In this document: positions 1 through 51,694 of the stretch, in pieces | How the letters are laid out: each line of letters opens with the position of its first letter | Position numbering within the stretch: the stretch's first letter is position 1 | From: Escherichia phage SECphi27 | Sequence record: LT961732 | Length of the DNA stretch: 51,811 bases | Direction: 5' to 3' (one strand) | Position numbers and translations under genes: made by a program | Notes under the pieces: model-generated | Seen by the model: the letters and a program-made list of their open reading frames with translations, nothing else | Databases searched by the model: none | Told to the model about the DNA's origin: nothing

Positions 1-55
1 AAATGGCTAAAGATATTTTAGATAAAGACACCCATGACGCATTCGTTAGCTTTGA
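1..55. repeat. Terminal direct repeat: 1-55 is identical to 51757-51811 (circular or permuted genome overlap)
   Basis: Exact 55-nt identity between window start and end; the dam start codon and its upstream region are duplicated. Confidence 0.9.
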
Positions 56-728
56 GCAGTTGGAGAGAGAAACGTTTATAGGAAATGCTCTTGCAACTGG
101 AGGCCATTACCAGGCAGTAAAGCCAAATCAATATTATAAGGTAAGCGGCAACCGATACGCTGGAAGCACTACGCCGGACGTTGTGCGCGATATGTGGAGC
201 ACGCCTCAAGAGATCGTGGAGTGGATGGAATCAGAATTTGGTGAATACGATCTCGACGCGGCAGCAAGCCAGGAAAACTCAGTTTGCGAGAAGTTCTACA
301 GCAAGGAAACAAATTGCTTAAAGCGTTGGTGGGGTAGCAACAAGCACGTATGGCTTAACCCGCCGTACAGCAACCCAACTCCATTTATCAAGAAAGCAAT
401 TGAGCAAATGGAGCACAACAACCAAATTGATGTTTTGTTGCCAGCCGACAACTCTACAGCATGGTTTTATGAGGCGCAGAAAAACGCGGCTGAAATCATC
501 TGGATCACTGGCGAGGTTTACGAAGAGGGTGGAGTAGAATACTCCCGCACCGGAAGAATCGCCTTTGTGTCTGGATTGACTGGCGAGCCTGTACAGGGCA
601 ACAACAAGGGAAGCGTGATTTTTGTCATGCGCAAACTTAAAGAAGGCGAGGAGCAGAAAACGCGATACGTTAAGATCAGCGATATTTGCCCATCTGTAAC
701 CGAACGCCGCGCGCGCAAACGGAGCTAA
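3..728 (+). CDS. dam: DNA N6-adenine methyltransferase (Dam-like)
   Basis: 241 aa; NPPY catalytic motif (WLNPPYS); RBS GGAG upstream (seen at 51745-51756). Confidence 0.8.
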   Translation: MAKDILDKDTHDAFVSFEQLERETFIGNALATGGHYQAVKPNQYYKVSGNRYAGSTTPDVVRDMWSTPQEIVEWMESEFGEYDLDAAASQENSVCEKFYSKETNCLKRWWGSNKHVWLNPPYSNPTPFIKKAIEQMEHNNQIDVLLPADNSTAWFYEAQKNAAEIIWITGEVYEEGGVEYSRTGRIAFVSGLTGEPVQGNNKGSVIFVMRKLKEGEEQKTRYVKISDICPSVTERRARKRS

Positions 729-732
729 CACG

Positions 733-990
733 ATGAAAAAAGAGAGAAGCGTTTATTTAAATGAAACTGGCGAGTGGTTGTTATTTCGCGCTATGGTGTG
801 CGATGCAATTGATAAAAACCCTAACGTGAAAAAGATGATTGATTGCGATCCGTGGGAATTTTCAAGCGCATTAGATATGAGCTTTGATGAGACAAGAAAA
901 CTCCCTCTTGAAAAATGGCACGAACAAATCAGAAATGATATGCAAGATTTTGTAGATTCGTGGAATTTTCAGAACGGAATGATCCACTAA
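733..990 (+). CDS. hypothetical protein
   Basis: 85-aa ORF; stop abuts conserved intergenic motif. Confidence 0.5.
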   Translation: MKKERSVYLNETGEWLLFRAMVCDAIDKNPNVKKMIDCDPWEFSSALDMSFDETRKLPLEKWHEQIRNDMQDFVDSWNFQNGMIH

Positions 991-1009
991 TAGCACTTTT
1001 TGTTAAAAC
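991..1009 (+). promoter_or_regulatory. Conserved intergenic motif TAGCACTTTTTGTTAAAAC, forward class, followed by hairpin, CATAAT and CATCGAAACGA
   Basis: Motif directly after TAA stop; hairpin gcccggc/gtcgggc 1010-1028; cataat about 1029; tcatcgaaacga 1039-1050. Confidence 0.6.
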
Positions 1010-1059
1010 GCCCGGCATTTTGTCGGGCATAATTATTTCATCGAAACGAACGTGAGGAA

Positions 1060-1245
1060 ATGAAAATGGTAGTATATAGCAAGAAAGCATTTGACCAGGC
1101 GCAACAAGTCGCACGCGAGGCGGTAAAAGGTGGAACGAAAAACAATATGCAGCTTGATTGGGGCGCTGCAATGATTCTACTTCGCGTTGCATATGGTCAC
1201 TACCCATTAGAATTTGCGGAGGCATATTATAAGCATGAAGGTTGA
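1060..1245 (+). CDS. hypothetical protein
   Basis: 61-aa ORF after GAGG RBS; downstream of motif unit. Confidence 0.5.
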   Translation: MKMVVYSKKAFDQAQQVAREAVKGGTKNNMQLDWGAAMILLRVAYGHYPLEFAEAYYKHEG

Positions 1246-1477
1246 GCAAGGTAGAGAGGCGGTATGGAATCACGCTAAAGAATGCGGAATAGCCGACGAT
1301 ATAAAGAAGATCGCGCAATACTTTGATATTGCAGATGTGAGCATAATTAGCGGCGATAAGATGACTTTCCTCAAGGAAAGGCCGCGAAAAATGGTAAGAG
1401 TTCCAGCAGTTCCAACAAAAATTGATTTCAAAGAGGCAATGGCTAAAATCCGAGAGCCTCGCAAATATTATAAATGA
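1235..1477 (+). CDS. hypothetical protein (start uncertain)
   Basis: ORF track 1214-1477 begins at TTG; first ATG about 1235. Confidence 0.4.
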   Translation: MKVEQGREAVWNHAKECGIADDIKKIAQYFDIADVSIISGDKMTFLKERPRKMVRVPAVPTKIDFKEAMAKIREPRKYYK

Positions 1478-1571
1478 GGATAGTTATCATGTGGCGCTTG
1501 TTTGTTCTACCGTTACCCGTTATCATCGCTGTTACAGTTATGTACCATATAGTGATGAGATAGGTAGAAGA

Positions 1572-2687
1572 ATGAAAAATGTAAAAATTACAGATGAGCA
1601 ATTCAAGATCGAGCGGGCGGCGGGTAAGACATATAAACAGATCGCTCAAGAGTACGGAATGAATGTGAGAAGCGTCGAGCGTCGCGCGGCGCGTCTTGCA
1701 AAGCAAGGCCAGGTATCCACCATTGGAGCGCCTGGTTTTGGCGTTCATGGTGAGTCAGTAATGACTGACAAAGAAGGCAACATAATCCTAAAGTGGACTA
1801 AAACCAGCAAGGATAAAGAGCAATTAGAAGCATTAATGCGCGCAGCAATGGAGGCATTTAGCGAGGAAGTGCCGAGATTAGATCCGGTCACATTACAGGA
1901 GCGCGACTATAACGAAACGCTTTCCTTGTATCCGATCTTTGACATGCACTTAGGCGCTATGGCCCATAAGCACGAATGCGGCGAAAATTGGGATACTGCC
2001 ACGGCAGAGCGCGTTATGAATAACTTTATCGACTATGCTTTAATGTGCGCACCGGATAGCGAAAAGGCTGTCATCCTGATTGGTGGCGATATGCTACATA
2101 GCGACGGCCTGGAGGCGGTTACACCTGCAAGCGGTCACGTACTGGATCAAGATAGTCGATATGCAAAATTGGTTTACGTTGCCATCCGTGCAATGCGACG
2201 CGCAATCAATAAAATGTTGTTAAAGCATAAACATGTTGAAGTCCAGATCGTAGAGGGCAATCATGACCAATCAGGAATGATTTGGCTACGCGCAGCAATG
2301 GCGGCAGCATATGAAAACGAGCCGCGAGTTTACGTTGATGTTTCCCCTCGCGTTGTGCACCACACGCAATACGGAAAAACTTTCCTTGCGTACCATCACG
2401 GGCACACAGTGCGTAAACCGGAGACTTTGCTAATGATGTGCGCGTCAGATTGGCGGGAGGACTTCGGAAACTCAAAAACGATGTATGCGCACGTAGGGCA
2501 CTGGCATCACCAGACCGTGACAGAAACGTCGCTTGGCATCGTTGAGGTGCATAGCACCCTGGCGGCAAAAGACGCATACGCCGCGCGAGGTGGCTGGAGA
2601 TCTCGACGCCGTGCGGCGGTTATCATTTACGACAAAGAGCATGGAGAAGTGGGGCGATTTGTTCACTATCCAGAAATGATGAATTGA
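1572..2687 (+). CDS. HTH domain fused to calcineurin-like metallophosphoesterase
   Basis: N-terminal helix-turn-helix-like segment (KTYKQIAQEYGMNVRSVERRAARL); phosphoesterase motifs GDMLHSDG, EGNHDQ, YHHGH, GHWHH; start moved to ATG 1572 after RBS. Confidence 0.6.
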   Translation: MKNVKITDEQFKIERAAGKTYKQIAQEYGMNVRSVERRAARLAKQGQVSTIGAPGFGVHGESVMTDKEGNIILKWTKTSKDKEQLEALMRAAMEAFSEEVPRLDPVTLQERDYNETLSLYPIFDMHLGAMAHKHECGENWDTATAERVMNNFIDYALMCAPDSEKAVILIGGDMLHSDGLEAVTPASGHVLDQDSRYAKLVYVAIRAMRRAINKMLLKHKHVEVQIVEGNHDQSGMIWLRAAMAAAYENEPRVYVDVSPRVVHHTQYGKTFLAYHHGHTVRKPETLLMMCASDWREDFGNSKTMYAHVGHWHHQTVTETSLGIVEVHSTLAAKDAYAARGGWRSRRRAAVIIYDKEHGEVGRFVHYPEMMN

Positions 2688-2734
2688 TGAATTTTTATTT
2701 AAATCAATGACAAATTAAATCAAAAACTTGCAAT

Positions 2735-2762
2735 GGGGCGGCGTTTGTCGCCTCTTTTTTTT
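2735..2762 (+). terminator. Weak intrinsic terminator-like hairpin plus T8
   Basis: GC hairpin followed by tttttttt after the phosphoesterase gene. Confidence 0.4.
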
Positions 2763-2833
2763 GTTTAATTTTTTTACCATGTACGTTTATCATGCGGTCA
2801 ATATATTGACTTTAATTAATATGGAGAATAAAA

Positions 2834-7069: not shown

Positions 7070-7090
7070 TTTTAACAAAAAGTGCTATTT
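7070..7090 (-). promoter_or_regulatory. Conserved intergenic motif, forward class
   Basis: Minus-strand read: aatagcactttttgttaaaa, hairpin gccaggt/acctggc, cataat, catcgaacaaac, RBS, ATG at 7015. Confidence 0.6.
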
Positions 7091-9828: not shown

Positions 9829-9851
9829 GTTTTTAACAAAAAGTGCTATTT
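9829..9851 (-). promoter_or_regulatory. Conserved intergenic motif, forward class
   Basis: Overlaps stop of 9850-10113 gene; hairpin gatgcgc/gcgcatc with tatagt in loop; catcgaaacgaaac. Confidence 0.55.
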
Positions 9852-10339: not shown

Positions 10340-10573
10340 TCAGATACGCCCATACAGATCACAGACTTCGTTGATAAAACAGCGTTGAGACTCTTTATCC
10401 TGCTTCTCAAACATCGCACGGCACTCATAGCGGTGATTATGCACGATGACAACAACCATATTTTCAGGCGCTGACGGGTGACGCGCGGAAGCGTCGCAGA
10501 TTGAAACATCCATACCCATCTCATGTGCTTTCTTGATCACATCCAACATTTTTTCTTCTCCTGCAATAAGCAA
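10340..10573 (-). CDS. hypothetical protein
   Basis: 77-aa ORF. Confidence 0.45.
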   Translation of the reverse strand: MLIAGEEKMLDVIKKAHEMGMDVSICDASARHPSAPENMVVVIVHNHRYECRAMFEKQDKESQRCFINEVCDLYGRI

Positions 10574-10803
10574 ACATCATTGATAAAATCAGCACGGCCC
10601 TTAATGTTGCTGATGTGGAACGTCTTTTCAGCGTACAGGCCATCACCTTCAATCACGATCATTACGCGAGTCGGTTTATTCACGGGCGCACACGAAAAGA
10701 GTGGTCGCACCGGAAGAAATTTAGTAGCCACATCCAGGTTAGCCCTGGCGGCCCTGCAAAATGCCTCCGCCAGATCCAAATCATTTTCGGTAATCACCGC
10801 CAT
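10537..10803 (-). CDS. hypothetical protein
   Basis: 88-aa ORF; overlaps neighbour by 37 nt. Confidence 0.45.
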   Translation of the reverse strand: MAVITENDLDLAEAFCRAARANLDVATKFLPVRPLFSCAPVNKPTRVMIVIEGDGLYAEKTFHISNIKGRADFINDVCLLQEKKKCWM

Positions 10804-11075
10804 TACTTCTTGATCTCCTCACTGATAAATTTCAGCACCTGACGCAAGAAAACCTCGTTGTTGATAGTCGCTGGCAATTCTTCTTTCACTTCTTGCGGCA
10901 GATAGATATTGCCGTGCCAGGTCAAGCAATCGTAGTTGATACGATAAGAGCAAAGCCACTCGCAATCGTTATCTGCTTCCCAAATACAGAGTTGCAGAAC
11001 ATCGCCAAAATCTTCAACAGTCAGATCCAGACCGTGACGCTTAGCGAAATTGAAAGTGGTTTTGCTGATGTTCAT
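10803..11075 (-). CDS. hypothetical protein (first gene of minus-strand early block)
   Basis: 90-aa ORF; AGGAGA RBS; motif unit upstream. Confidence 0.55.
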   Translation of the reverse strand: MNISKTTFNFAKRHGLDLTVEDFGDVLQLCIWEADNDCEWLCSYRINYDCLTWHGNIYLPQEVKEELPATINNEVFLRQVLKFISEEIKK

Positions 11076-11135
11076 TGCTATCTCCTGAGCGGTTCGTTTC
11101 GATGTGTGTAATGTACCCGATCAGACGGCCTGAGT

Positions 11136-11156
11136 TTTAACAAAAAGTGCTATTTG
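11136..11156 (-). promoter_or_regulatory. Conserved intergenic motif, forward class, heading the minus-strand early block
   Basis: tagcactttttgttaaaac followed by catcgaaacgaacc (about 11091-11104), RBS and ATG at 11075. Confidence 0.55.
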
Positions 11157-11164
11157 ACGGTTAG

Positions 11165-11290
11165 CGCCAGGATTGTGATCGAAATAATCAAAAGTAATCA
11201 TTCGTAATCAAATCACGTCAAAATGATGATTGCCTTTGCAAATTTGATGAGAAAAGTAATCACGTTTAATCATTGGTTGCATGGGAGATA
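11165..11290. repeat. Iteron-like cluster of TAATCA repeats
   Basis: At least five (A/G)TAATCA copies within about 110 bp in a noncoding divergent region. Confidence 0.5.
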
Positions 11291-11708
11291 GTGAAACCTT
11301 CCCCTCTTGCCTCACTTTTCCGCCTGGCTGTCAGTGGTTGTTGTCTTTTGTTCACCCCTGTTACCGATTTCAGGCGGCGTGTTTCCGCGCGGTTTTCCGG
11401 TGTAGCGAAAACGGAAAAAACAAAGAAAATCCTCTATAATACATTGAAAATAAAGATTATTTATTTATATATATCTATAATGTTTTCTTTTTGTTCTCAC
11501 TGTTACAGTGCTTTTTGTTGGTTATGGTGTGGTTGTGTGTGGGCATATATGGATAGTTGCGCGCGCGGCGGATTGCATATGTATATATACTTTTTCCGGC
11601 GGATTGCGTTAACAGCGTGAACAGAAAAATAACAGCCGCGAAATCAATAACTTGCGCATGATTTTGTAGTTTTTCGATATTGGTAACGTTTTGAATACAA
11701 CAAAAACA

Positions 11709-11736
11709 TTGACACGCACCAAATAGCTTTTATAAT
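11709..11736 (+). promoter_or_regulatory. Near-consensus sigma70 promoter (TTGACA, 16 nt, TATAAT)
   Basis: ttgacacgcaccaaatagcttttataat; about 30 nt upstream of RBS GGAGG and ATG 11768. Confidence 0.65.
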
Positions 11737-11767
11737 GCGCCAACAGTCAACAACTGGAGGAAAGGAA

Positions 11768-12232
11768 ATGGAACAGAAGACCACTAAGGACTATTGCGAT
11801 TGGCTTCGCGAGCTTGGTCGCCGCCTGGCTAGTGGCGATATTGAAGAGTATAAAATGTCACTAATTGACCTGGCCGGAATGTTAAGCGGTGATGACTGCT
11901 ACAAGATCACGCGCAGTTCATCCTACAGCCGGACCATTATCAACCGCGTTCCAGAAGTAAGGGCCGCAGGTCGGGTAAGCATCAAGGTAGAGGAAACGGA
12001 AGATGATAAATTTTACGTTTTCCGCATGGTGCGCGAATCGAAAAGGAAAATCATCACACCCGAAGAATTGCCAGCAATCAAGGCAAGGGCGATCAAAAAG
12101 TTTGCCGATCGCTTACTGGCAGCAATCCCGAACATCGTGGACCTGGAAGGGGATAAACTGGCTGGGGCTTGCGAGGGCGTAAGCCGCTACCAGGATATGA
12201 TCCGCGAAATCATCAAAGAGGAAGAGCAATGA
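11768..12232 (+). CDS. hypothetical protein (first gene of plus-strand block)
   Basis: ORF track 11735-12232; start moved to ATG after GGAGG RBS, because 11735 lies inside the promoter. Confidence 0.55.
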   Translation: MEQKTTKDYCDWLRELGRRLASGDIEEYKMSLIDLAGMLSGDDCYKITRSSSYSRTIINRVPEVRAAGRVSIKVEETEDDKFYVFRMVRESKRKIITPEELPAIKARAIKKFADRLLAAIPNIVDLEGDKLAGACEGVSRYQDMIREIIKEEEQ

Positions 12233-12501
12233 AAAAGGCATTAATCAGCGTTTTGGCGGCAATGGCATTCCTGACCGGATGCAAAGAAGATGGCGCGCAT
12301 GTTGGCAATGTGCAGATGGCTAACCCTGGCGATGACTACAGCGTAAGGGAGCTATTCACCGCTGACGGTTGCACCGTTTACCGATTCTATGACGATCGCA
12401 CTGTTTACTTCACCAACTGTAAGGGCGCTACTAGCTGGGAAGTGTCGAAAAGCAATGGCAAAGGCACGAAGACAGAACATATGACCGTCGAGACAAAATA
12501 G
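12229..12501 (+). CDS. putative lipoprotein
   Basis: Signal peptide with lipobox LTGC; ATGA overlap with upstream gene. Confidence 0.55.
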   Translation: MKKALISVLAAMAFLTGCKEDGAHVGNVQMANPGDDYSVRELFTADGCTVYRFYDDRTVYFTNCKGATSWEVSKSNGKGTKTEHMTVETK

Positions 12502-12517
12502 CACTTTTTGTTAAAAC
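12499..12517 (+). promoter_or_regulatory. Conserved intergenic motif, forward class
   Basis: Begins with TAG stop of upstream gene; hairpin gccaggc/gcctggc; ataat; tcatcgaaacga; RBS; ATG 12574. Confidence 0.6.
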
Positions 12518-13955: not shown

Positions 13956-13974
13956 TAGCACGAATTGTTAAAAC
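13956..13974 (+). promoter_or_regulatory. Conserved intergenic motif (variant TAGCACGAATTGTTAAAAC), forward class
   Basis: Follows TAA stop; hairpin gggcc/ggccc with tataat in loop. Confidence 0.5.
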
Positions 13975-14027
13975 TCAAATGTGGGGCCAGGTATAATGGC
14001 CCTACTTTCAACGAAGGAGATAAAACG

Positions 14028-14246
14028 ATGTACATTAAAAAGAAGATGAAATGCGTTTCCGTTAACTATGCTTGCTCTGGCATGTTCAAGCCTGGCGAAA
14101 TCTATACAGCGCAAAAACTGAAATCATCAACCGGATCTTTTTACGTGAGCAATAGTAAGGGGCATCGCATGTTCCTGAACGGCGGCGAAGGCACTAAGGT
14201 TATGGCACACGCTATGGTAATGGCTGAATTTGAGGAAGTGAAATAA
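14028..14246 (+). CDS. hypothetical protein
   Basis: Start moved to ATG after AAGGAGA RBS. Confidence 0.5.
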   Translation: MYIKKKMKCVSVNYACSGMFKPGEIYTAQKLKSSTGSFYVSNSKGHRMFLNGGEGTKVMAHAMVMAEFEEVK

Positions 14247-15208: not shown

Positions 15209-15400
15209 ATGGCTGACTTTATGCATCAAATGATTGTTGTATTTAAGGGCAGTGAAGATGAAGAGGTTCGCGAATGCTTCACCATTGAGAAATCATACAG
15301 CGCATCTTTAACCAGTTTTGGCAACATATCTATGATTGATGATAATGGCGATCCGTGGATTTTTGAAGATGATACGGATTGCTTTGAGATTAAAGAATAG
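15209..15400 (+). CDS. hypothetical protein
   Basis: 63-aa acidic ORF; stop abuts motif. Confidence 0.45.
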   Translation: MADFMHQMIVVFKGSEDEEVRECFTIEKSYSASLTSFGNISMIDDNGDPWIFEDDTDCFEIKE

Positions 15401-15416
15401 CACTTTTTGTTAAAAT
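15398..15416 (+). promoter_or_regulatory. Conserved intergenic motif, forward class
   Basis: Begins with TAG stop; tatagt downstream; RBS GAGGA before ATG 15472. Confidence 0.55.
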
Positions 15417-17901: not shown

Positions 17902-18192
17902 ATGGCAAACAAAACTTACCGCAAACTACTGGTTAACGCTTTTGAAAACATCGCGCAGTCTAACAAGTGGAACGACTCTAAACATTCACCAGTCACAATG
18001 AAGCGCGCTGGATTCAAAAATGCTCGTTCATGGGCGCGAGCTTTCGCATCTTGCTATATGCCGGATGGCGGATTAGGAGCGATGAACGAGTTTTTGATCA
18101 ACATGATAGAGGAAGCTGCGCGAGAGGATCGACCGCTGACACAGCGAGATTTTGACGACTTCGCGCGCGATGAGCTTTACTATCTGAGCTAA
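17902..18192 (+). CDS. hypothetical protein
   Basis: 96-aa ORF; stop followed by motif. Confidence 0.5.
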   Translation: MANKTYRKLLVNAFENIAQSNKWNDSKHSPVTMKRAGFKNARSWARAFASCYMPDGGLGAMNEFLINMIEEAAREDRPLTQRDFDDFARDELYYLS

Positions 18193-18211
18193 TAGCACTT
18201 TTTGTTAAAAC
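18193..18211 (+). promoter_or_regulatory. Conserved intergenic motif, forward class
   Basis: Follows TAA; hairpin aagggca/tgccctt 18219-18241; RBS GAGGAAAG before ATG 18268. Confidence 0.55.
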
Positions 18212-20318: not shown

Positions 20319-20846
20319 ATGGCTAAAAATGTTGAGCCTGCTGTAAAGGCATTAAATTTCAAAGAGTTATACAATAAAACTTATGGCGATATTGTCACGC
20401 TAAACAACCGCCACAAGTACACGCCGGAACAGGTTTTTGATATGGCGATCCGCTATTTCACTTGGGCCGAAGAGAATCACATCCAGGCGGCTGAAACTGC
20501 TTCCTTTCAGGGTGACGTGTACGAGAGCAGAGTTTACAAGCCTCGCGTTTTCACGGTTAACGGATTCAGCTTGTATCTCGGCGTGACTGAGGCTGCCGTA
20601 AGCAAATGGCGTAAAGAGCCTGGATTCTGCGATGTGATGGAGTTTGTTGATAAAGTAATTTACGAGCAAAAATTCCAGCTTGCGGCAAATAACATGATTA
20701 ACGCTGGATTTATCGGTAAAGAGATCGGAGTAGAGAAGCCAGCAACAGTGAGCGTTGAAGCTAGCTCGGCAGCTAATGCAAGCATTGACGCAGTAACTGC
20801 CGATGAGGTGAAAGAGGCTGTTATTGATATTCTGGAGCAACTTTAA
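20319..20846 (+). CDS. terS: terminase small subunit
   Basis: About 175 aa immediately upstream of terL with overlapping stop/start; strong RBS AAGGAGG. Confidence 0.7.
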   Translation: MAKNVEPAVKALNFKELYNKTYGDIVTLNNRHKYTPEQVFDMAIRYFTWAEENHIQAAETASFQGDVYESRVYKPRVFTVNGFSLYLGVTEAAVSKWRKEPGFCDVMEFVDKVIYEQKFQLAANNMINAGFIGKEIGVEKPATVSVEASSAANASIDAVTADEVKEAVIDILEQL

Positions 20847-22414
20847 TGATCATATGGGAAGATTTGACGGCGGCGCAAAAGCGAGCCATTAAAGAAATCA
20901 GTGAGCATTCATTCGAAAAGATGATCAGAATCTGGTTTCAGTTATTGCAGGGGCAAAAATTCCAGAGCAACTGGCATTTTAGCTTATTGTGCAGTGAGGT
21001 AGAGAAAATCATCAATGGAGAGTCGCAGAATGTTATTTTCAACATTACGCCAGGTAGCGGTAAGACTGAGATTTTCTCGATCCACATGTCACCCTACGCG
21101 TCATTGAAAAGTCGTAAGGTGAGAAACCTTAACCTTTCGTTTAGTGATGGACTTGTCCAGCAAAACAGCAACAGGATAAAGGAGATTATCGGTTCTCCTG
21201 AGTGGCAAGAGCTATGGCCAGGAAAACTGGCAAAGGCGAGCGCAAAAGATCTCATAGTTACGGATGGCGGCAAGGTTAAATTGCAAGTTAACTCACGTTC
21301 TATTGGCGGACAGGTAACAGGTTTGCGTGGCGGCTATATGGATGATGGTTTTACTGGTATGCTGGTTCTGGACGATCCAGACAAGCCTGATGATATGCTT
21401 TCTAAGGTCAAGCGTGAGGCGATCCACATGAGGTTAAAAAACACAGTGCGTTCTCGTCGAATGAAAGACACCACGCCAATTGTTATGGTGCAACAGCGAC
21501 TACACGTTAATGATTCCACCTGGTTCATGCTTAATGGCGGGATGGGCGGTATTGAGTTTAAAGTTGTGAGCATTCCTGCGCTGGTTACGAAAGAATACCG
21601 CGAAACGCTTCCTGATTGGTTGAAGCCTGAATTTGATCGTGATGTGTTGTCAAGTAAGCCAGTGATGATAGATGGAGTTGCTCATTATTCATTTTGGCCT
21701 GCAAAGGAAAGCGCGGAGGAATTGCTTGCATTGCGCAATGCAGATCCTTACACGTTCGCCAGCCAATACCAACAACAACCCATCGCGCTTGGCGGCAACG
21801 TGTTTAAAACAGAGTGGTTCCAGTATTACGGCAGCGGCGAAAAATGCGCACTTCCTAAACCGGATCGCTTTGAATACACATTTATTACTGGAGATACAGC
21901 ACAGAAGGCCGGAGAGCTTAACGACTATTCAGTTTTTTGTTATTGGGGGATGTATAAAAATCGCGTTTACTTCATTGATGGCATTCGCGGCAAGTGGGAA
22001 GCGCCAGATCTTGAATTAAATTTTATTGCCTTCGTTAATCAGTGCTGGAAGCGCAATAAGGAGTGTGGCAGCTTGCGACGTATTCACATTGAGGATAAGG
22101 CCAGCGGCACGGGTTTGATTCAGGGGGCCAAAAAGAAGATCCCGATTGATATAAATCCCGTTCAGCGAAGCAATGACAAGGTAACGCGAGCAATGGACGC
22201 CGCGCCAGTAATGAGGGCAGGACGTGTGGCACTGCCAGAAAGTCATCCCATGTTACCTGAGATACTGGCAGAGGTTGCAGCGTTCACTTTTGACGATTCT
22301 CATCCCCATGATGATATTGTCGATAATATAGTTGATGCTGTTAACGTCGAAATGAACTTGGCAGATGATCCGGTAGCAAGGATGAAAAAGCTGGCTGGTC
22401 TACGCAATAAATAG
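20846..22414 (+). CDS. terL: terminase large subunit
   Basis: 522 aa; ATPase-like motifs (PGSGKTE; VLDDPD) and C-terminal nuclease-like acidic residues; gene order terS-terL-portal. Confidence 0.85.
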   Translation: MIIWEDLTAAQKRAIKEISEHSFEKMIRIWFQLLQGQKFQSNWHFSLLCSEVEKIINGESQNVIFNITPGSGKTEIFSIHMSPYASLKSRKVRNLNLSFSDGLVQQNSNRIKEIIGSPEWQELWPGKLAKASAKDLIVTDGGKVKLQVNSRSIGGQVTGLRGGYMDDGFTGMLVLDDPDKPDDMLSKVKREAIHMRLKNTVRSRRMKDTTPIVMVQQRLHVNDSTWFMLNGGMGGIEFKVVSIPALVTKEYRETLPDWLKPEFDRDVLSSKPVMIDGVAHYSFWPAKESAEELLALRNADPYTFASQYQQQPIALGGNVFKTEWFQYYGSGEKCALPKPDRFEYTFITGDTAQKAGELNDYSVFCYWGMYKNRVYFIDGIRGKWEAPDLELNFIAFVNQCWKRNKECGSLRRIHIEDKASGTGLIQGAKKKIPIDINPVQRSNDKVTRAMDAAPVMRAGRVALPESHPMLPEILAEVAAFTFDDSHPHDDIVDNIVDAVNVEMNLADDPVARMKKLAGLRNK

Positions 22415-26226: not shown

Positions 26227-27015
26227 ATGGCTAAAGATTATTCATCTGTTATGGGTCTTTCTTGCCCTGGTTGTTTGGTTGATTCTACTCGCTACAATAT
26301 TGATGGAACTGGTGTTTGCGGATCTGAGTCGATCATTGCTGGCAAGGTTGTTTTCTTCAAAGAGAGAGTAGAAGGTTATAACATATTTGTTGATCAAAAA
26401 GAGGATGATGCAGTAGTTGCTGGTATTGCGCTAAGGAGCAACATAACAACAACAGTTAACCAGGATGGCGGCTACTCTGACTACAAAGAAGGTGATCCTA
26501 TTAGCGTTGTAACTCGTGGTCGCGTGTGGGTGTTAACTGAAAGTATTGATGAAGCTCCTTCACACGGTGAAAAAGTATATGTTAATAACGATGGATTTGT
26601 TGGTAAGTCCGGCGACCAGGTTGTTGATGGGTGGATTTTTACAGGTGATTTTATGAAATTTGACAGTAGCATTAACATTGTAGGGATTCATATCAAACCT
26701 GTAATAGTACATGTTCAAAAGTTAACAGCGGCTATTATTGAAGATGTTGATGGTAACAAGCCTGATGGAAACAGACCAAACAATGAGCCTGTTAATCTAA
26801 AGGTTACTGTAGATCCTGAATATGCAACAGATAAAACTGGAACATGGGAGATTTCATTAGGAGGAGAATACGCATCAATTTCGCCAAGTGGTGACACGGC
26901 GCAAGTAACGCCATCAAGCAATGGTGATGTATATGTAAACTGGGTGGCAAATGACGGATCTGGTGTATCTGACACATTTATCATCAACTTTGTAGATCCA
27001 GAGCCTGGCCCTTAA
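26227..27015 (+). CDS. head auxiliary/decoration-like protein (paralogue 2) with C-terminal Ig-like domain
   Basis: N-terminus paralogous to 25667-26176; C-terminal Ig-like (Big_2-type) segment. Confidence 0.5.
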   Translation: MAKDYSSVMGLSCPGCLVDSTRYNIDGTGVCGSESIIAGKVVFFKERVEGYNIFVDQKEDDAVVAGIALRSNITTTVNQDGGYSDYKEGDPISVVTRGRVWVLTESIDEAPSHGEKVYVNNDGFVGKSGDQVVDGWIFTGDFMKFDSSINIVGIHIKPVIVHVQKLTAAIIEDVDGNKPDGNRPNNEPVNLKVTVDPEYATDKTGTWEISLGGEYASISPSGDTAQVTPSSNGDVYVNWVANDGSGVSDTFIINFVDPEPGP

Positions 27016-27033: not shown

Positions 27034-27054
27034 GTTTAACAAAAAGTGCTATCA
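27034..27054 (-). promoter_or_regulatory. Conserved intergenic motif, inverted class, upstream of major capsid gene
   Basis: Plus strand reads gtttaacaaaaagtgctatca, the reverse complement of the motif, although flanking genes are on plus strand. Confidence 0.55.
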
Positions 27055-30786: not shown

Positions 30787-30805
30787 TTTTAACAAAAAGT
30801 GCTAT
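30787..30805 (-). promoter_or_regulatory. Conserved intergenic motif, inverted class, directly upstream of chaperone RBS
   Basis: Plus strand reads ttttaacaaaaagtgctat followed by AAGGAG and ATG 30820. Confidence 0.55.
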
Positions 30806-48697: not shown

Positions 48698-49174
48698 TTA
48701 GCTATTCGTGCTGTTATCACCTTTGTAGAATCGTCCGCCTGGTTCGTAGTCTGAATTTTTGACTACGCGCAACATCTCGTATTTGTCGCAACGGGTAGTA
48801 AGAGGCTTACCGTTAGAATCAAACCGAAGATCTGGACGACAAAATGATGCGCGGTATCCTTTGCATCCATTATATTTGTAGTCGTTATGCACCTTTTGTG
48901 CTCCAGCGGCTGAAATCATACCACGCTTTCGCCACTGGTTAACGACTTGCTGAGATACGCGCAGACGTCGAGCCATAGCAGGAACGCCGCCGTAATACTC
49001 GATCAGAATGTCAAGGCGAGATTTCAGGCTTGCTTTTACCTCATCTCGCAGGATAAGAAATCCGGTTCGGTGTTTTCGTGGTTTTTTGTCTTTACCTCGT
49101 CGCGTTCCGTTGTTACCGTTAATAGTGCGCTTGTCGATCTCACCCGTAGATACTGCAATTCGTGCATCTTTCAT
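48698..49174 (-). CDS. HTH DNA-binding protein (putative regulator)
   Basis: 158 aa; helix-turn-helix-like AMARRLRVSQQVVNQWRKRG; basic N-terminus; divergent from helicase gene. Confidence 0.55.
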   Translation of the reverse strand: MKDARIAVSTGEIDKRTINGNNGTRRGKDKKPRKHRTGFLILRDEVKASLKSRLDILIEYYGGVPAMARRLRVSQQVVNQWRKRGMISAAGAQKVHNDYKYNGCKGYRASFCRPDLRFDSNGKPLTTRCDKYEMLRVVKNSDYEPGGRFYKGDNSTNS

Positions 49175-51259: not shown

Positions 51260-51678
51260 TGGCTATAACTGATAAAGGAGATTATCTTGAGTTTTACGAA
51301 AGAGATCCAACCGACACGAGAAAGGAAGTTAATCACCAGATAGATAGCTTTCAGTGGTTGACTTATGCTCATCCTTATTTGCTAGCGTGGCATACGGTAA
51401 ACGAGAATGAGAAGTCGAAAGTAACGGCGATGATTGATCAGCAGTCCGGCTTGGTTAAGGGGGTAAGCGATTTCATCATCCTGATTGGTTCAAACGGAAA
51501 ATACCCCTTTGCAGCGATTGAGATCAAACGAGTGAATAAATCAGGCAAGGGGAAAGCATCACCAGTCAGCGATGAACAAAAGGCTTTTTTGCGTCGCGTT
51601 CGCAGCTTAGGAGGATTCGCTGCGGTCGCCTACGGATTTAATCAGTTTAAGTTAGCTATTGAATACATGCTTAAATAG
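51259..51678 (+). CDS. VRR-NUC domain nuclease
   Basis: 139 aa; D...E-x-K motif (SDFIILIG...AIEIKR) typical of VRR-NUC PD-(D/E)XK nucleases; ATGA overlap with helicase. Confidence 0.65.
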   Translation: MAITDKGDYLEFYERDPTDTRKEVNHQIDSFQWLTYAHPYLLAWHTVNENEKSKVTAMIDQQSGLVKGVSDFIILIGSNGKYPFAAIEIKRVNKSGKGKASPVSDEQKAFLRRVRSLGGFAAVAYGFNQFKLAIEYMLK

Positions 51679-51694
51679 CACTTTTTGTTAAAAC
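51676..51694 (+). promoter_or_regulatory. Conserved intergenic motif, forward class, upstream of dam
   Basis: Begins with TAG stop; hairpin tggcgc/gcgcca 51695-51714; taattc; RBS GGAG; dam ATG at 51759. Confidence 0.6.

What the first reader, a model, noticed from the sequence alone, without database searches (positions are those of the whole stretch)
11160..11740. Large AT-rich noncoding hub with TAATCA iteron-like repeats at the divergence point of early transcription
About 650 bp lie between the minus-strand early block (start 11075) and the plus-strand block (start 11768), which is unusual in a phage where most genes overlap. The region holds at least five TAATCA repeats (11165-11290), a T/G-rich tract, a stretch with ATATAT runs, and ends in a near-consensus sigma70 promoter. 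The only ORF through it (11273-11620) has a low-complexity Cys/Trp-rich translation and looks spurious. Candidate origin of replication, regulator-binding array, or noncoding RNA locus.
Basis: seen in the sequence. Interest (0 to 1): 0.6.

Follow-up and report, generated by a model that had tools for sequence, protein, structure and literature searches.

The report
Phage T1-type packaging and control hub
This 692-bp gap is the noncoding region, present in all phage T1 relatives examined, where DNA packaging is known to start in T1 and TLS; it also holds two diverging promoters and a previously undescribed set of short repeats that changes together with the neighbouring gene and could mark the still-unknown replication origin.

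Summary
A 692-bp gap (11076-11767) separates diverging early operons. It holds five exact TAATCA copies in 10-bp phase, AT runs, a G/T tract and a perfect sigma-70 promoter. ORF 11273-11620 is not conserved.

The window is a T1-like coliphage (Drexlerviridae, Warwickvirus). The gap matches the terminal noncoding region of T1 and TLS, where their pac sites were mapped. Base 1 of the T1 record aligns to about 11276, just right of the TAATCA array.

The hub has two modules that recombine independently.
- **Left module (11154-11338):** the TAATCA array. It stays constant wherever the small terminase is the same. It is most likely the terminase recognition and cutting region.
- **Right module (11339-11767 plus gene 11768-12232):** three phased arrays of TGTTNNC units flank a 10%-GC core. 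The unit sequence changes in all arrays together, lineage by lineage, following the adjacent DUF7174 protein. This fits an origin with its initiator, or an early-gene operator.

The terminase link could not be separated from clade membership, and no function was tested. No RNA signal was found.

The parts
11076..11153 (-). Leftward promoter P_L of the phage's own 'DR' class, plus its leader. The DR element ATAGCACTTTTTGTTAAAA reads on the minus strand from 11153 to 11135. A -10-like TACATT lies at 11115-11110. The conserved leader start CATCGAAACGAA runs from 11104 to 11093.
   Evidence: The 19-mer occurs 20 times in the window against 0.24 expected. An alignment of the 20 copies shows a variable spacer, often a dyad, then a -10-like gtAtAnT and a conserved leader cATCGAAACGAA upstream of the RBS. 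The TLS paper describes the same 21-nt repeat as unexplained. This stretch is the left conserved island in distant blastn.
11165..11272 (+). AATCA-type repeat array. TAATCA lies at 11185, 11195, 11205, 11257 and 11267. An extra AATCA lies at 11211 and an inverted TGATT at 11227. A TGATCG (GATC) lies at 11176-11181. This is the candidate small-terminase recognition part of pac.
   Evidence: It belongs to the left module, which is 95-99.5% identical in exactly 59 GenBank records with nothing weaker. TGATT/AATCA clusters occupy the same position in T1, TLS, W011D, WaterSpirit and the IMG/VR loci.
11276..11291 (.). Position that matches the opening point of reference records. GTTGCATGG (11276-11284) equals bases 1-9 of the T1 record. 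The XY3 record starts at the equivalent of 11291. This is the inferred neighbourhood of the first packaging cut.
   Evidence: The T1 record has repeat_region 1..2800 and starts GTTGCATGG. Joined T1 and TLS ends were compared with the window. In XY3 the match ends at the end of the record. TLS pac was mapped by restriction digests.
11339..11386 (+). Array A of TGTTNNC units: 11339 TGTTGTC, 11349 TGTTCAC and 11359 TGTTACC in 10-bp phase, plus 11380 TGTTTCC. It marks the left edge of the exchangeable right module.
   Evidence: (D1). Homology between window and atuna breaks down here.
11411..11481 (+). Most conserved core of the hub: an A-tract, TATAAT (11435-11440), ACATTGAAAATAAAG, a TTATTTATTTATATATATC run and a second TATAAT (11476-11481). 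GC is 0.10 over 11441-11481. It is a candidate DNA-unwinding or bending element, possibly with a weak promoter that lacks a -35.
   Evidence: Nearly invariant between Warwickvirus and Changchunvirus. It is the only part of the hub that blastn finds in distant genera. Other lineages carry a perfect IHF core, AATCAAnnnnTTA, at this place (read by eye).
11481..11506 (+). Array B of TGTTNNC-type units: 11481 TGTTTTC, 11492 TGTTCTC and 11500 TGTTACA.
   Evidence: Direct repeat of array A (D1) and inverted repeat of array C (I1: 25 nt, 80% complementary).
11506..11592 (+). G/T-rich tract (11506-11545), then a second AT/alternating run ATGTATATATAC (11577-11590). The run is bracketed by the exact direct repeat CGGCGGATTGC (11566-11576 and 11597-11607).
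   Evidence: GC skew +0.23; D12. The same compositional pattern is seen in the hubs shown.
11607..11635 (+). Array C, the same units in inverted orientation: GTTAACAGC, GTGAACAGA and a degenerate ATAACAG.
   Evidence: The tandem pair is unique in the window. At this position most relatives examined carry 2-3 tandem ~9-bp repeats whose unit is lineage-specific.
11642..11654 (+). Match to the IHF core consensus (AATCAATAACTTG), lying between array C and P_R.
   Evidence: five matches in the window against four expected, so it is not significant alone. Similar AATCA(A/G)nnACTTA motifs at the same place in several lineages were read by eye.
11709..11736 (+). Rightward early promoter P_R, TTGACA-16-TATAAT. 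The RBS GGAGG lies at 11756-11760 and the ATG at 11768.
   Evidence: 12/12 match, and the only promoter-like hit in 10500-12500. A TTGAC(A/G)-type -35 and a -10-like hexamer at the same place are seen in the six aligned hubs and in most other hubs shown.
11768..12232 (+). Gene 1 of the rightward operon: Pfam DUF7174 / phrog_4841, 154 aa. It is the candidate binder of the TGTTNNC arrays, acting as initiator or early regulator.
20319..20846 (+). Small terminase subunit (P22 gp3-like), 9 kb downstream. It is the proposed partner of the left module.
   Evidence: The allele (at least 97.7% identical) is present in the same 59 accessions as the left module. The next-best TerS is at most 74% identical.
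11273..11620 (+). Mechanical ORF of 115 aa, judged non-coding.

Best explanation
The gap is the terminal control region shared by the T1-like phages examined. It is built from two modules that are exchanged independently.

**Left module (about 11076-11338).** It carries the leftward promoter of the phage's own DR class. Next to it lies a phased array of AATCA/TGATT motifs, here TAATCA five times. I propose that an oligomer of the small terminase binds this array. The large terminase would then make the first packaging cut nearby, around 11276, and headful packaging would proceed rightwards.

**Right module (11339-11767 plus gene 11768-12232).** Nine or so TGTTNNC units lie in three clusters, most spaced about one helical turn apart. 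They flank a 10%-GC core and a second AT run, and sit upstream of a consensus sigma-70 promoter that drives the DUF7174 gene. I propose that the DUF7174 protein binds these units through a winged-helix-like domain and forms a nucleoprotein complex. That complex most likely marks the replication origin, opening the AT-rich core so that the phage helicase and primase can load. It probably also feeds back on early transcription.

**Shown here:** the anatomy, its conservation, the independent exchange of the two modules, the concerted change of the units, and the positional match to the T1 and TLS genome ends.

**Inferred:** every binding event, the site of the cut, and origin activity.
For: **Identity of the phage.** The window is 98-99% identical to Warwickvirus phages.

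**Positional homology to mapped genome ends.**
- The T1 record starts with 538 nt of noncoding DNA and a 2.8-kb terminal repeat. TLS starts with 588 nt of noncoding DNA.
- T1 bases 1-9 equal window 11276-11284. The joined T1 and TLS ends show the same order of elements as the window.
- TLS pac was mapped by restriction digests to this spot. The SU57 paper states that the pac site of T1-like phages lies in this untranslated region.

**The array is not a chance cluster**.

**Two modules.**
- Window and atuna have nearly all proteins 93-100% identical, including TerS, TerL, both helicases, the primase and the HTH protein. Yet the DNA from about 11339 and the DUF7174 gene (29% identity) are replaced.
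- The same pattern recurs in four TerS clusters. The left half stays 0.90-0.96 identical, while gene 1 falls below 0.65 and the right half falls to 0.60-0.69.
- All 16 pairs with TerS at least 90% identical keep the left half at 80% or more. None of the 234 pairs with TerS below 80% do.

**Iteron-like system.**
- Eight TGTTNNC/GNNAACA units in 360 nt is the maximum in the window (mean 1.09, sd 1.12).
- The arrays are direct and inverted copies of one another.
- The unit changes in all arrays together, lineage by lineage: TGTTCGC/TGTTAGC, TGTTATC (7-11 copies), TGTTACC, TGTTTC, TGTTAAT.
- The unit follows gene 1, not TerS. Atuna and L019 have different TerS and different left halves but the same unit.

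**DUF7174 fold.** The model is winged-helix-like, with weak matches to CtsR and RepE.

**Open question.** Two papers on T1-like phages say the origin has not been found.
Against: **The TerS link is not specific.** The 59 records that carry the left module are simply a clade. The HTH regulator shows the same count of 59, at 99% identity or more, and the dNMP kinase gives 59 at 90% or more. Co-occurrence therefore cannot single out TerS.

**Record starts are not independent evidence.** The opening points of the T1, TLS and XY3 records may follow convention. KanT1 was explicitly oriented to match T1. The TLS base 1 was chosen by its resemblance to P22 within a region that was only restriction-mapped. 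PhageTerm often fails on these phages.

**Adjacency confounds the link between gene 1 and the repeats.**

**Origin features are incomplete.** There are no DnaA boxes in the hub. The units are short (7 bp) and degenerate in the window itself.

**No experimental data of any kind were available here.**
Confidence: 0.5

Rival explanations
1. The hub is purely a transcription-control region. The repeat arrays are operators. DUF7174 would be an autoregulator or early shut-off factor for P_R and P_L. The TAATCA array would be an upstream operator of P_L, bound by another early protein such as the HTH regulator 48698-49174. Packaging and replication would start elsewhere, or without specific sites in this region.
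For: Two promoters diverge here. The TAATCA array lies 60-170 bp upstream of the inferred P_L start. In other lineages a TTATTCC...GGAATAA palindrome abuts the DR element like an operator. The HTH regulator has the same 59-record distribution as the left module. Array C lies upstream of the promoter of its own gene, as autoregulatory sites do. The best fold matches include the repressors CtsR and PurR.
Against: T1 and TLS pac map to this region. Phased direct repeats spread over 300 bp around a 10%-GC core are not typical of a simple operator. None of the arrays overlaps the -35 or -10 of P_R. A Cro-like HTH dimer would be expected to bind palindromes, not five direct repeats (established knowledge).
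Confidence: 0.25
2. One reading: the TAATCA array itself is the iteron set of the replication origin.
For: The copies are phased direct repeats in AT-rich DNA (GC 0.34). The origin of T1-like phages is unknown.
Against: The array sits where the T1 and TLS genome ends map. A more origin-like arrangement lies 70-450 bp to its right: repeats on both sides of a 10%-GC core, next to a co-varying winged-helix-like gene. No candidate initiator varies with the TAATCA allele apart from whole-clade differences.
Confidence: 0.1
3. The hub encodes a small noncoding RNA, for example one starting at the TATAAT at 11435 and ending at the hairpin 11498-11510 with its T run.
For: There is a TATAAT with a terminator-like hairpin downstream, and the core is strongly conserved.
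Against: No Rfam hit was found at the gathering threshold, and only chance-level snoRNA hits at E below 1. For 11285-11430, just upstream of the proposed transcript, folding energy is no better than shuffles on either strand (z +0.62 and -0.41); the transcript interval 11447-11520 itself was not folded. The hairpin is not conserved in WaterSpirit or W011D. There is no -35 element.
Confidence: 0.05
4. ORF 11273-11620 is a real gene for a small membrane protein, as annotated in vB_EcoS-95 gp32.
For: It is annotated in some records, with two predicted transmembrane segments.
Against: The frame is broken by indels in relatives. Amino-acid identity is only 53%. Different, mutually inconsistent small ORFs are called in other records, and none in the curated BASEL record.
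Confidence: 0.03

Closest known systems
pac region of coliphages T1 and TLS (headful packaging with limited permutation)
   Same: The position in the genome is homologous: the untranslated region between the two diverging blocks of small early genes. The order of elements is the same. T1 bases 1-9 are identical to 11276-11284. The TerS belongs to the same P22 gp3-like family.
   Different: No pac sequence has been defined experimentally for any T1-like phage. TLS base 1 was picked by resemblance to P22, and an ATATA motif was proposed for T1. The repeat motif here (TAATCA, direct, 10-bp phase) differs from the TGATTG/GGAATA motifs of T1 and the TGATT runs of TLS.
Phage P1 pac site (seven TGATCA/G hexamers flanking the cut, with an IHF site and Dam control); recalled from memory
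   Same: It uses a short hexamer repeated in two clusters (3 + 2 here) on either side of a spacer of about 45 bp. The motif differs from the P1 hexamer by one base. One true TGATCG lies at the left edge, and the phage encodes its own Dam methylase.
   Different: The TAATCA copies contain no GATC, so Dam control of the repeats is not possible. The P1 terminase (PacA/PacB) is unrelated. The cut here is inferred to lie to the right of both clusters, not between them.
Iteron-type replication origins with an adjacent winged-helix initiator gene (mini-F RepE, pSC101 RepA, R6K pi; lambda O/ori in logic)
   Same: There are multiple repeats, most spaced about a helical turn apart, next to an AT-rich segment. 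Further copies in inverted orientation lie upstream of the promoter of the adjacent gene. That gene encodes a winged-helix-like protein and co-varies with the repeats. An IHF-like core is present.
   Different: The units are about 7 bp, not 17-22 bp. There are no DnaA boxes. The protein has 154 aa with a single winged-helix-like domain plus a helical hairpin, and has no sequence or strong fold match to Rep proteins. Origin activity has not been tested.
Satellite phage P4 ori/crr with TGTTCACC iterons bound by the alpha primase-helicase (recalled from memory; not found in the searchable library)
   Same: The core TGTTCAC/GTGAACA occurs in arrays A and C. The phage encodes P4-alpha-like primase zinc-ribbon and DUF3987 helicase proteins.
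   Different: The helicase and primase are 99-100% identical in atuna, where the units differ (TGTTATC). No P4 alpha origin-binding-domain match was found by sequence in the PDB. The resemblance is therefore probably coincidental.

Membership tests
pac site of a headful-packaging phage | It lies at the physical end created by the first terminase cut. | not testable with these tools
   No virion reads are available. Indirect support only: the window aligns to the opening points of the T1, TLS and XY3 records and to the restriction-mapped pac region of TLS.
pac site of a headful-packaging phage | Its sequence co-varies specifically with the small terminase. | tested here: inconclusive
   The same 59 accessions carry the left module and the TerS allele, and 16/16 versus 0/234 pairs agree. 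However, the HTH regulator and the dNMP kinase give the same 59-record count, so clade membership explains the result equally well.
pac site of a headful-packaging phage | It has repeated recognition motifs suited to an oligomeric TerS. | tested here: met
   Five TAATCA copies in 10-bp phase, a non-random cluster. AATCA/TGATT clusters lie at the same place in the relatives shown.
Iteron-type replication origin | It has several copies of a short repeat at helical phasing. | tested here: met
   TGTTNNC at 11339, 11349 and 11359 (10 bp), at 11481 and 11492 (11 bp), and inverted at 11608 and 11617 (9 bp). This is the highest density in the window.
Iteron-type replication origin | It has an adjacent AT-rich segment that unwinds easily. 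| tested here: met
   11441-11481 has GC 0.10 and lies between arrays A and B. A second AT run at 11577-11590 lies between arrays B and C. Unwinding itself was not tested.
Iteron-type replication origin | It has a cognate initiator whose specificity tracks the repeat sequence. | tested here: inconclusive
   The units change together with gene 1 (DUF7174) across lineages and independently of TerS, helicase and primase. Gene 1 is adjacent, however, so linkage cannot be excluded. DNA binding is inferred only from a weak winged-helix-like fold.
Iteron-type replication origin | It has host-factor sites (DnaA boxes, IHF). | tested here: not met
   There are no DnaA boxes in the hub, and only 2 in the window against 6.3 expected. 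There is one IHF core match at 11642-11654, which is not significant alone.
Iteron-type replication origin | It supports replication initiation. | not testable with these tools
   This needs marker-frequency sequencing, 2D gels or an origin-cloning assay.
Sigma-70 promoter (P_R) | It has -35 and -10 hexamers at 16-18 bp spacing upstream of a gene. | tested here: met
   TTGACA-16-TATAAT, a 12/12 match, conserved in position in the six aligned hubs and most other hubs shown. The transcription start was not mapped.
P4 alpha-type origin | Its iterons are recognised by the phage primase-helicase. | tested here: not met
   The helicase is 100% and the primase 99% identical in atuna, while the units differ. 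No match to an origin-binding domain was found.
Known RNA family / structured small RNA | It matches a covariance model or folds better than shuffled sequence. | tested here: not met

The most novel reading that the evidence does not exclude
The right module (arrays A-C, the 10%-GC core and the DUF7174 gene) is the long-sought replication origin and initiator of T1-like phages. It would be a new family of small winged-helix-like initiators that recognise 7-bp TGTTNNC iterons and move between phages as a self-contained cassette. The left module would be the first sequence-level definition of a T1-type pac site.
Probability: 0.3. Interest if true: 0.65.

Novelty: new variant of a known kind. Interest (0 to 1): 0.5.

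Why it matters
T1 is one of the seven classic T phages and a notorious laboratory contaminant. Even so, neither its packaging signal nor its replication origin has been defined at the sequence level, and recent papers on TLS and SU57 say so explicitly.

This analysis narrows both questions to short motif sets that can be mutated: the AATCA array next to the mapped genome end, and the TGTTNNC arrays together with an uncharacterised 154-aa protein.

It also shows that the two parts are exchanged as separate cassettes. That matters for engineering these phages, for predicting their transduction behaviour, and for annotating about a thousand Drexlerviridae genomes in which spurious ORFs are called across this region.

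Tried and rejected
1. **P4-like origin.** GTGAACA is the reverse complement of the P4 iteron core as I recall it, and the phage has P4-alpha-like primase and helicase parts. I rejected this because both proteins are 99-100% identical in atuna, where the units differ, and because I found no match to an origin-binding domain.

2. **Proving the TerS link by co-occurrence in GenBank.** The 59/59 overlap looked decisive. A control with the HTH regulator gave the same count of 59, so the result reflects a clade and not a specific coupling. Only the gene immediately left of the hub is more widely shared, in 112 records.

3. **Motif class against TerS cluster in 55 IMG/VR loci.** GGAATA-type elements occur with at least six TerS clusters, so that element is not TerS-specific.

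4. **Defining the hub by crude ORF gaps.** This failed because spurious ORFs fill the hub. I anchored on the DR element and on homologues of gene 1 instead.

5. **Noncoding RNA.** There was no Rfam hit and no excess folding stability.

6. **DnaA boxes.** None were found.

7. **Structure prediction and fold searches.** Single-sequence structure prediction of DUF7174 was useless (pLDDT 47). The AlphaFold-database fold library was unavailable. Foldseek against the PDB and the viral library returned only weak or uncharacterised matches.

8. **Key older papers.** The T1 genome paper and the Rtp paper could not be read. What they say about pac is known here only at second hand.
Full report
**What the window is.** The hub and its flanks are 98-99% identical to a group of E. 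coli siphophages: vB_Eco-B1.2, vB_EcoS-95, FritzSarasin (Bas04), tonn and tonijn. These are classified as Drexlerviridae, Tempevirinae, Warwickvirus, that is, T1-like phages. The genome has diverging blocks of small early genes on either side of the finding. The terminase genes lie 9 kb to the right (TerS at 20319-20846). The primase, HTH-protein and helicase cluster lies about 14 kb away on the other side.

**Check of the observation.** The gap is 692 bp (11076-11767).
- TAATCA occurs five times on the + strand, at 11185, 11195 and 11205 and at 11257 and 11267, with exact 10-bp spacing within each group.
- No 6-mer reached five copies in 90 nt in 200 Markov shuffles of the window.
- The promoter at 11709-11736 is a perfect TTGACA-16-TATAAT.
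- The hub is compositionally mixed. GC is 0.34 over the array, 0.54 over 11290-11410, 0.10 over 11441-11481 and 0.40 overall, against 0.447 for the window.
- ORF 11273-11620 does not behave like a gene. Alignment with WaterSpirit and W011D needs indels of 1, 2 and 8 nt inside it. Its translated identity is only 53%. Different records call different small ORFs, or none, across this stretch.

**The region is homologous to the ends of the T1 and TLS genomes.**
- A distant blastn search found two islands conserved outside the genus. In many records the inner island lies 30-250 nt from the start of the record.
- The T1 reference record opens with a 2.8-kb "repeat_region" (its terminal redundancy) and 538 nt of noncoding DNA. 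TLS opens with 588 nt of noncoding DNA.
- After joining the right and left ends of T1 and TLS, the same order of elements appears as in the window, atuna, WaterSpirit and W011D.
- T1 bases 1-9 (GTTGCATGG) are identical to window 11276-11284, immediately right of the last TAATCA. The XY3 record opens at the equivalent of 11291.
- The TLS paper reports restriction mapping of the submolar pac fragment to this spot, although the exact base was chosen by resemblance to P22.
- The SU57 paper states that the pac site of T1 and other T1-like phages lies in this untranslated region between the two blocks of small ORFs.
- A later paper reports that five ATATA repeats had been proposed as the T1 pac motif.
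- The coarse function of the region, the start of headful packaging, is therefore already known for the family.

**The left island is a genome-wide promoter element.**
- The 19-mer TTTTAACAAAAAGTGCTAT at 11135-11153 occurs 20 times in the window against 0.24 expected. It is the 21-nt "direct repeat" that the TLS authors list as unexplained.
- Aligning the 20 copies in the direction ATAGCAC...TAAAA shows a spacer of variable sequence, often with dyad symmetry, followed by a -10-like gtAtAnT, a conserved leader cATCGAAACGAA and the RBS.
- I read this as the phage's own promoter class. The hub copy would be the leftward promoter P_L, with its -10 TACATT at 11115-11110. This is an inference, because no transcription starts were available.

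**Two modules.** I compared the window with the whole genome of atuna.
- Nearly all proteins are 93-100% identical; the exceptions include gene 1, 13965-14246 (60%), 26227-27015 (65%), the tail-fibre region and a few genes absent from atuna. The near-identical set includes TerS, TerL, the DUF3987 helicase, the primase, the HTH regulator and the SNF2-type helicase.
- In contrast, the DNA from about 11339 onward and the first rightward gene (11768-12232) are replaced. That gene is only 29% identical.
- I then fetched 55 IMG/VR loci around TerS homologues with 10-kb flanks, located the hubs and compared 23 complete hubs pairwise.
- In four separate TerS clusters, pairs of phages keep the left half at 0.90-0.96 identity and TerS at 0.93-0.99. 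In the same pairs gene 1 drops below 0.65 and the right half drops to 0.60-0.69.
- All 16 pairs with TerS at least 90% identical share the left half. None of the 234 pairs with TerS below 80% do.

**Is the left module tied to the terminase?**
- In GenBank, the left module (11156-11345) is found in exactly 59 records, all 95-99.5% identical, with nothing weaker.
- The window's TerS allele (at least 97.7% identical) is in exactly the same 59 accessions. The next-best TerS is at most 74% identical.
- The gene directly left of the hub is at least 95% identical in 112 records, and TerL diverges gradually.
- This looked like specific coupling, but a control removes the specificity. The HTH regulator is at least 99% identical in 59 records and then drops to 80%, and the dNMP kinase also gives 59 records at 90% or more.
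- The 59 records are a clade. The data are compatible with TerS recognition but do not single it out.
- The pac assignment therefore rests on three things: positional homology to the mapped T1 and TLS ends; phased direct repeats of the kind expected for a ring-shaped TerS oligomer (established knowledge from SPP1, P22/Sf6 and P1); and the presence of AATCA/TGATT clusters at this position in the lineages examined.

**The right module carries an iteron-like system.**
- The repeat finder had already paired 11339-11364 with 11481-11506 as direct repeats, and 11481-11505 with 11610-11634 as inverted repeats.
- These resolve into TGTTNNC units. Array A lies at 11339, 11349 and 11359 (10-bp phase), plus 11380. 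Array B lies at 11481, 11492 and 11500. Array C is inverted: GTTAACAGC, GTGAACAGA and ATAACAG at 11608-11635.
- Eight strict matches in 360 nt is the maximum for the window (mean 1.09, sd 1.12).
- Arrays A and B flank the most conserved part of the hub, an A-tract plus TATAAT plus a 10%-GC run. Arrays B and C flank the G/T tract and a second AT run.
- In relatives the arrays sit at the same distances from gene 1, but the unit differs: TGTTCGC/TGTTAGC in WaterSpirit; TGTTATC in atuna and L019 (7 and 11 copies); TGTTACC/A in L033 and L036; TGTTTC in L027; TGTTAAT in T1. The change affects all arrays of a hub together.
- The unit follows gene 1, not the terminase or the replication enzymes. Window and atuna share TerS, helicase and primase but differ in unit. 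Atuna and L019 differ in TerS and in the left half but share related gene 1 proteins (60% identical) and the same unit.
- Concerted change across arrays spread over 300 bp argues for a specific binding protein. Gene 1 is the obvious candidate, although its adjacency means that linkage cannot be excluded.

**Gene 1.**
- It is Pfam DUF7174 / phrog_4841, with no known function and no literature.
- With a 14-sequence alignment, AlphaFold2 gives pLDDT 83. The model has an N-terminal helix-strand-helices-hairpin arrangement like a winged helix, and a C-terminal helical hairpin.
- Foldseek finds nothing significant in the PDB, and only uncharacterised Drexlerviridae proteins in the viral library.
- DNA binding is thus plausible but not shown.

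**Origin or operator?**
- Several features match the plan of iteron replicons: phased repeats on both sides of a very AT-rich core; further inverted copies upstream of the promoter of a small winged-helix-like protein; an IHF-core match between them (11642-11654; perfect IHF cores lie in the AT core of other lineages); and a tandem pair that is unique in the genome.
- The origin of T1-like phages is unknown.
- Against this reading, there are no DnaA boxes, the units are short, and a role purely in controlling the two early promoters fits the same anatomy.
- I rate binding of the arrays by DUF7174 at about 0.65, and origin function at about 0.35-0.4.

**Ideas that failed.**
- The resemblance of GTGAACA to the P4 iteron, together with the P4-like primase and helicase parts, suggested a P4-type origin. 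Those proteins do not vary with the units, and no origin-binding domain was found.
- No noncoding-RNA signal was found.

**Verdict.**
- It is right that this is a real, multi-part protein-binding hub and that the ORF is spurious.
- It missed the known packaging role, and it placed the "iterons" in the wrong repeat family.
- At a coarse level the region is already known. The new points are the two-module structure, the family-wide AATCA/TGATT signature beside the mapped end, and the cassette of TGTTNNC arrays plus DUF7174. Together they make the pac and origin questions for T1-like phages directly testable.

Noticed in passing
window, 20 sites (e.g. 990-1008, 7070-7088, 9831-9849, 11135-11153, 12498-12516, 15397-15415, 18192-18210, 51675-51693): The 19-mer ATAGCACTTTTTGTTAAAA (the unexplained 'DR' of the TLS paper) occurs 20 times against 0.24 expected. 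Aligned copies show a spacer, often a GC-rich dyad, a -10-like gtAtAnT about 20 nt downstream, and a conserved leader cATCGAAACGAA. It looks like a phage-specific promoter class with unusual spacing.
   Followed up: partly
window 27034-27052 and 30787-30805: Two DR copies lie just upstream of the major capsid gene and the tail chaperone gene. They point antisense to the late genes, with no RBS or ATG downstream. T1 has matches to the same 19-mer pattern, in the same orientation, at the same two places (15068 and 18832).
   Followed up: no
L058 hub; T1 (L050) about 185 nt upstream of gene 1: Tunavirinae-type hubs carry a LexA-box-like palindrome in the second AT run: CTGTGTATATATACAG in L058, which is a perfect CTGT-N8-ACAG, and ATGTTTATATATACAG in T1. 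The window has ATGTATATATAC without the ACAG half.
   Followed up: no
T1 right end, WaterSpirit, L019, L020, L033, L034, L048, L052, L053, L058, L066: directly beside the hub DR element: Many lineages, but not the window, have a TCATTATTCCA...TGGAATAnnTGGAATAAT inverted and direct repeat that abuts the leftward DR promoter like an operator. It occurs with at least six different TerS clusters.
   Followed up: partly
GenBank MG0656xx 'Campylobacter phage' records and OR786094 'Streptococcus phage MBBL140': About 20 records labelled as Campylobacter phages, and one labelled as a Streptococcus phage, match this coliphage hub and its genes at 80-97% identity. They are probably T1-like contaminants or are mislabelled.
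   Followed up: no
window 10803-11075 (-): The 90-aa protein encoded just left of the hub is at least 95% identical in 112 Drexlerviridae records across genera. It also has 50-65% homologues in large myoviruses (phi92-like, rV5-like, JSE-like). Some records name it a thiol:disulfide interchange protein. It is unusually mobile and well conserved for a small early gene.
   Followed up: no
window 20319-20846 (TerS) versus 20846-22414 (TerL): TerS alleles are discrete: 59 records at 97.7% identity or more, none between 80% and 95%, and 127 at 60-80%. TerL diverges gradually: 53 at 99% or more, 65 at 90-95% and 68 at 80-90%. In mar001J1 TerL is 91.6% identical, and a homing endonuclease is annotated under the match.
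   Followed up: partly
TLS (L006) 412-440: The TLS paper states that no iteron-like repeats exist anywhere in its genome. However, TLS has CGTGAACACGTGAACAGCGATGGAACA at the array C position, with further TGTTC-type units upstream.
   Followed up: partly
window 12229-12501 (+): The second gene of the rightward operon, a small lipoprotein with DUF4884 in vB_EcoS-95, is only about 54% identical even to vB_EcoS-95. It may belong to the exchangeable cassette, or it may vary on its own.
   Followed up: no
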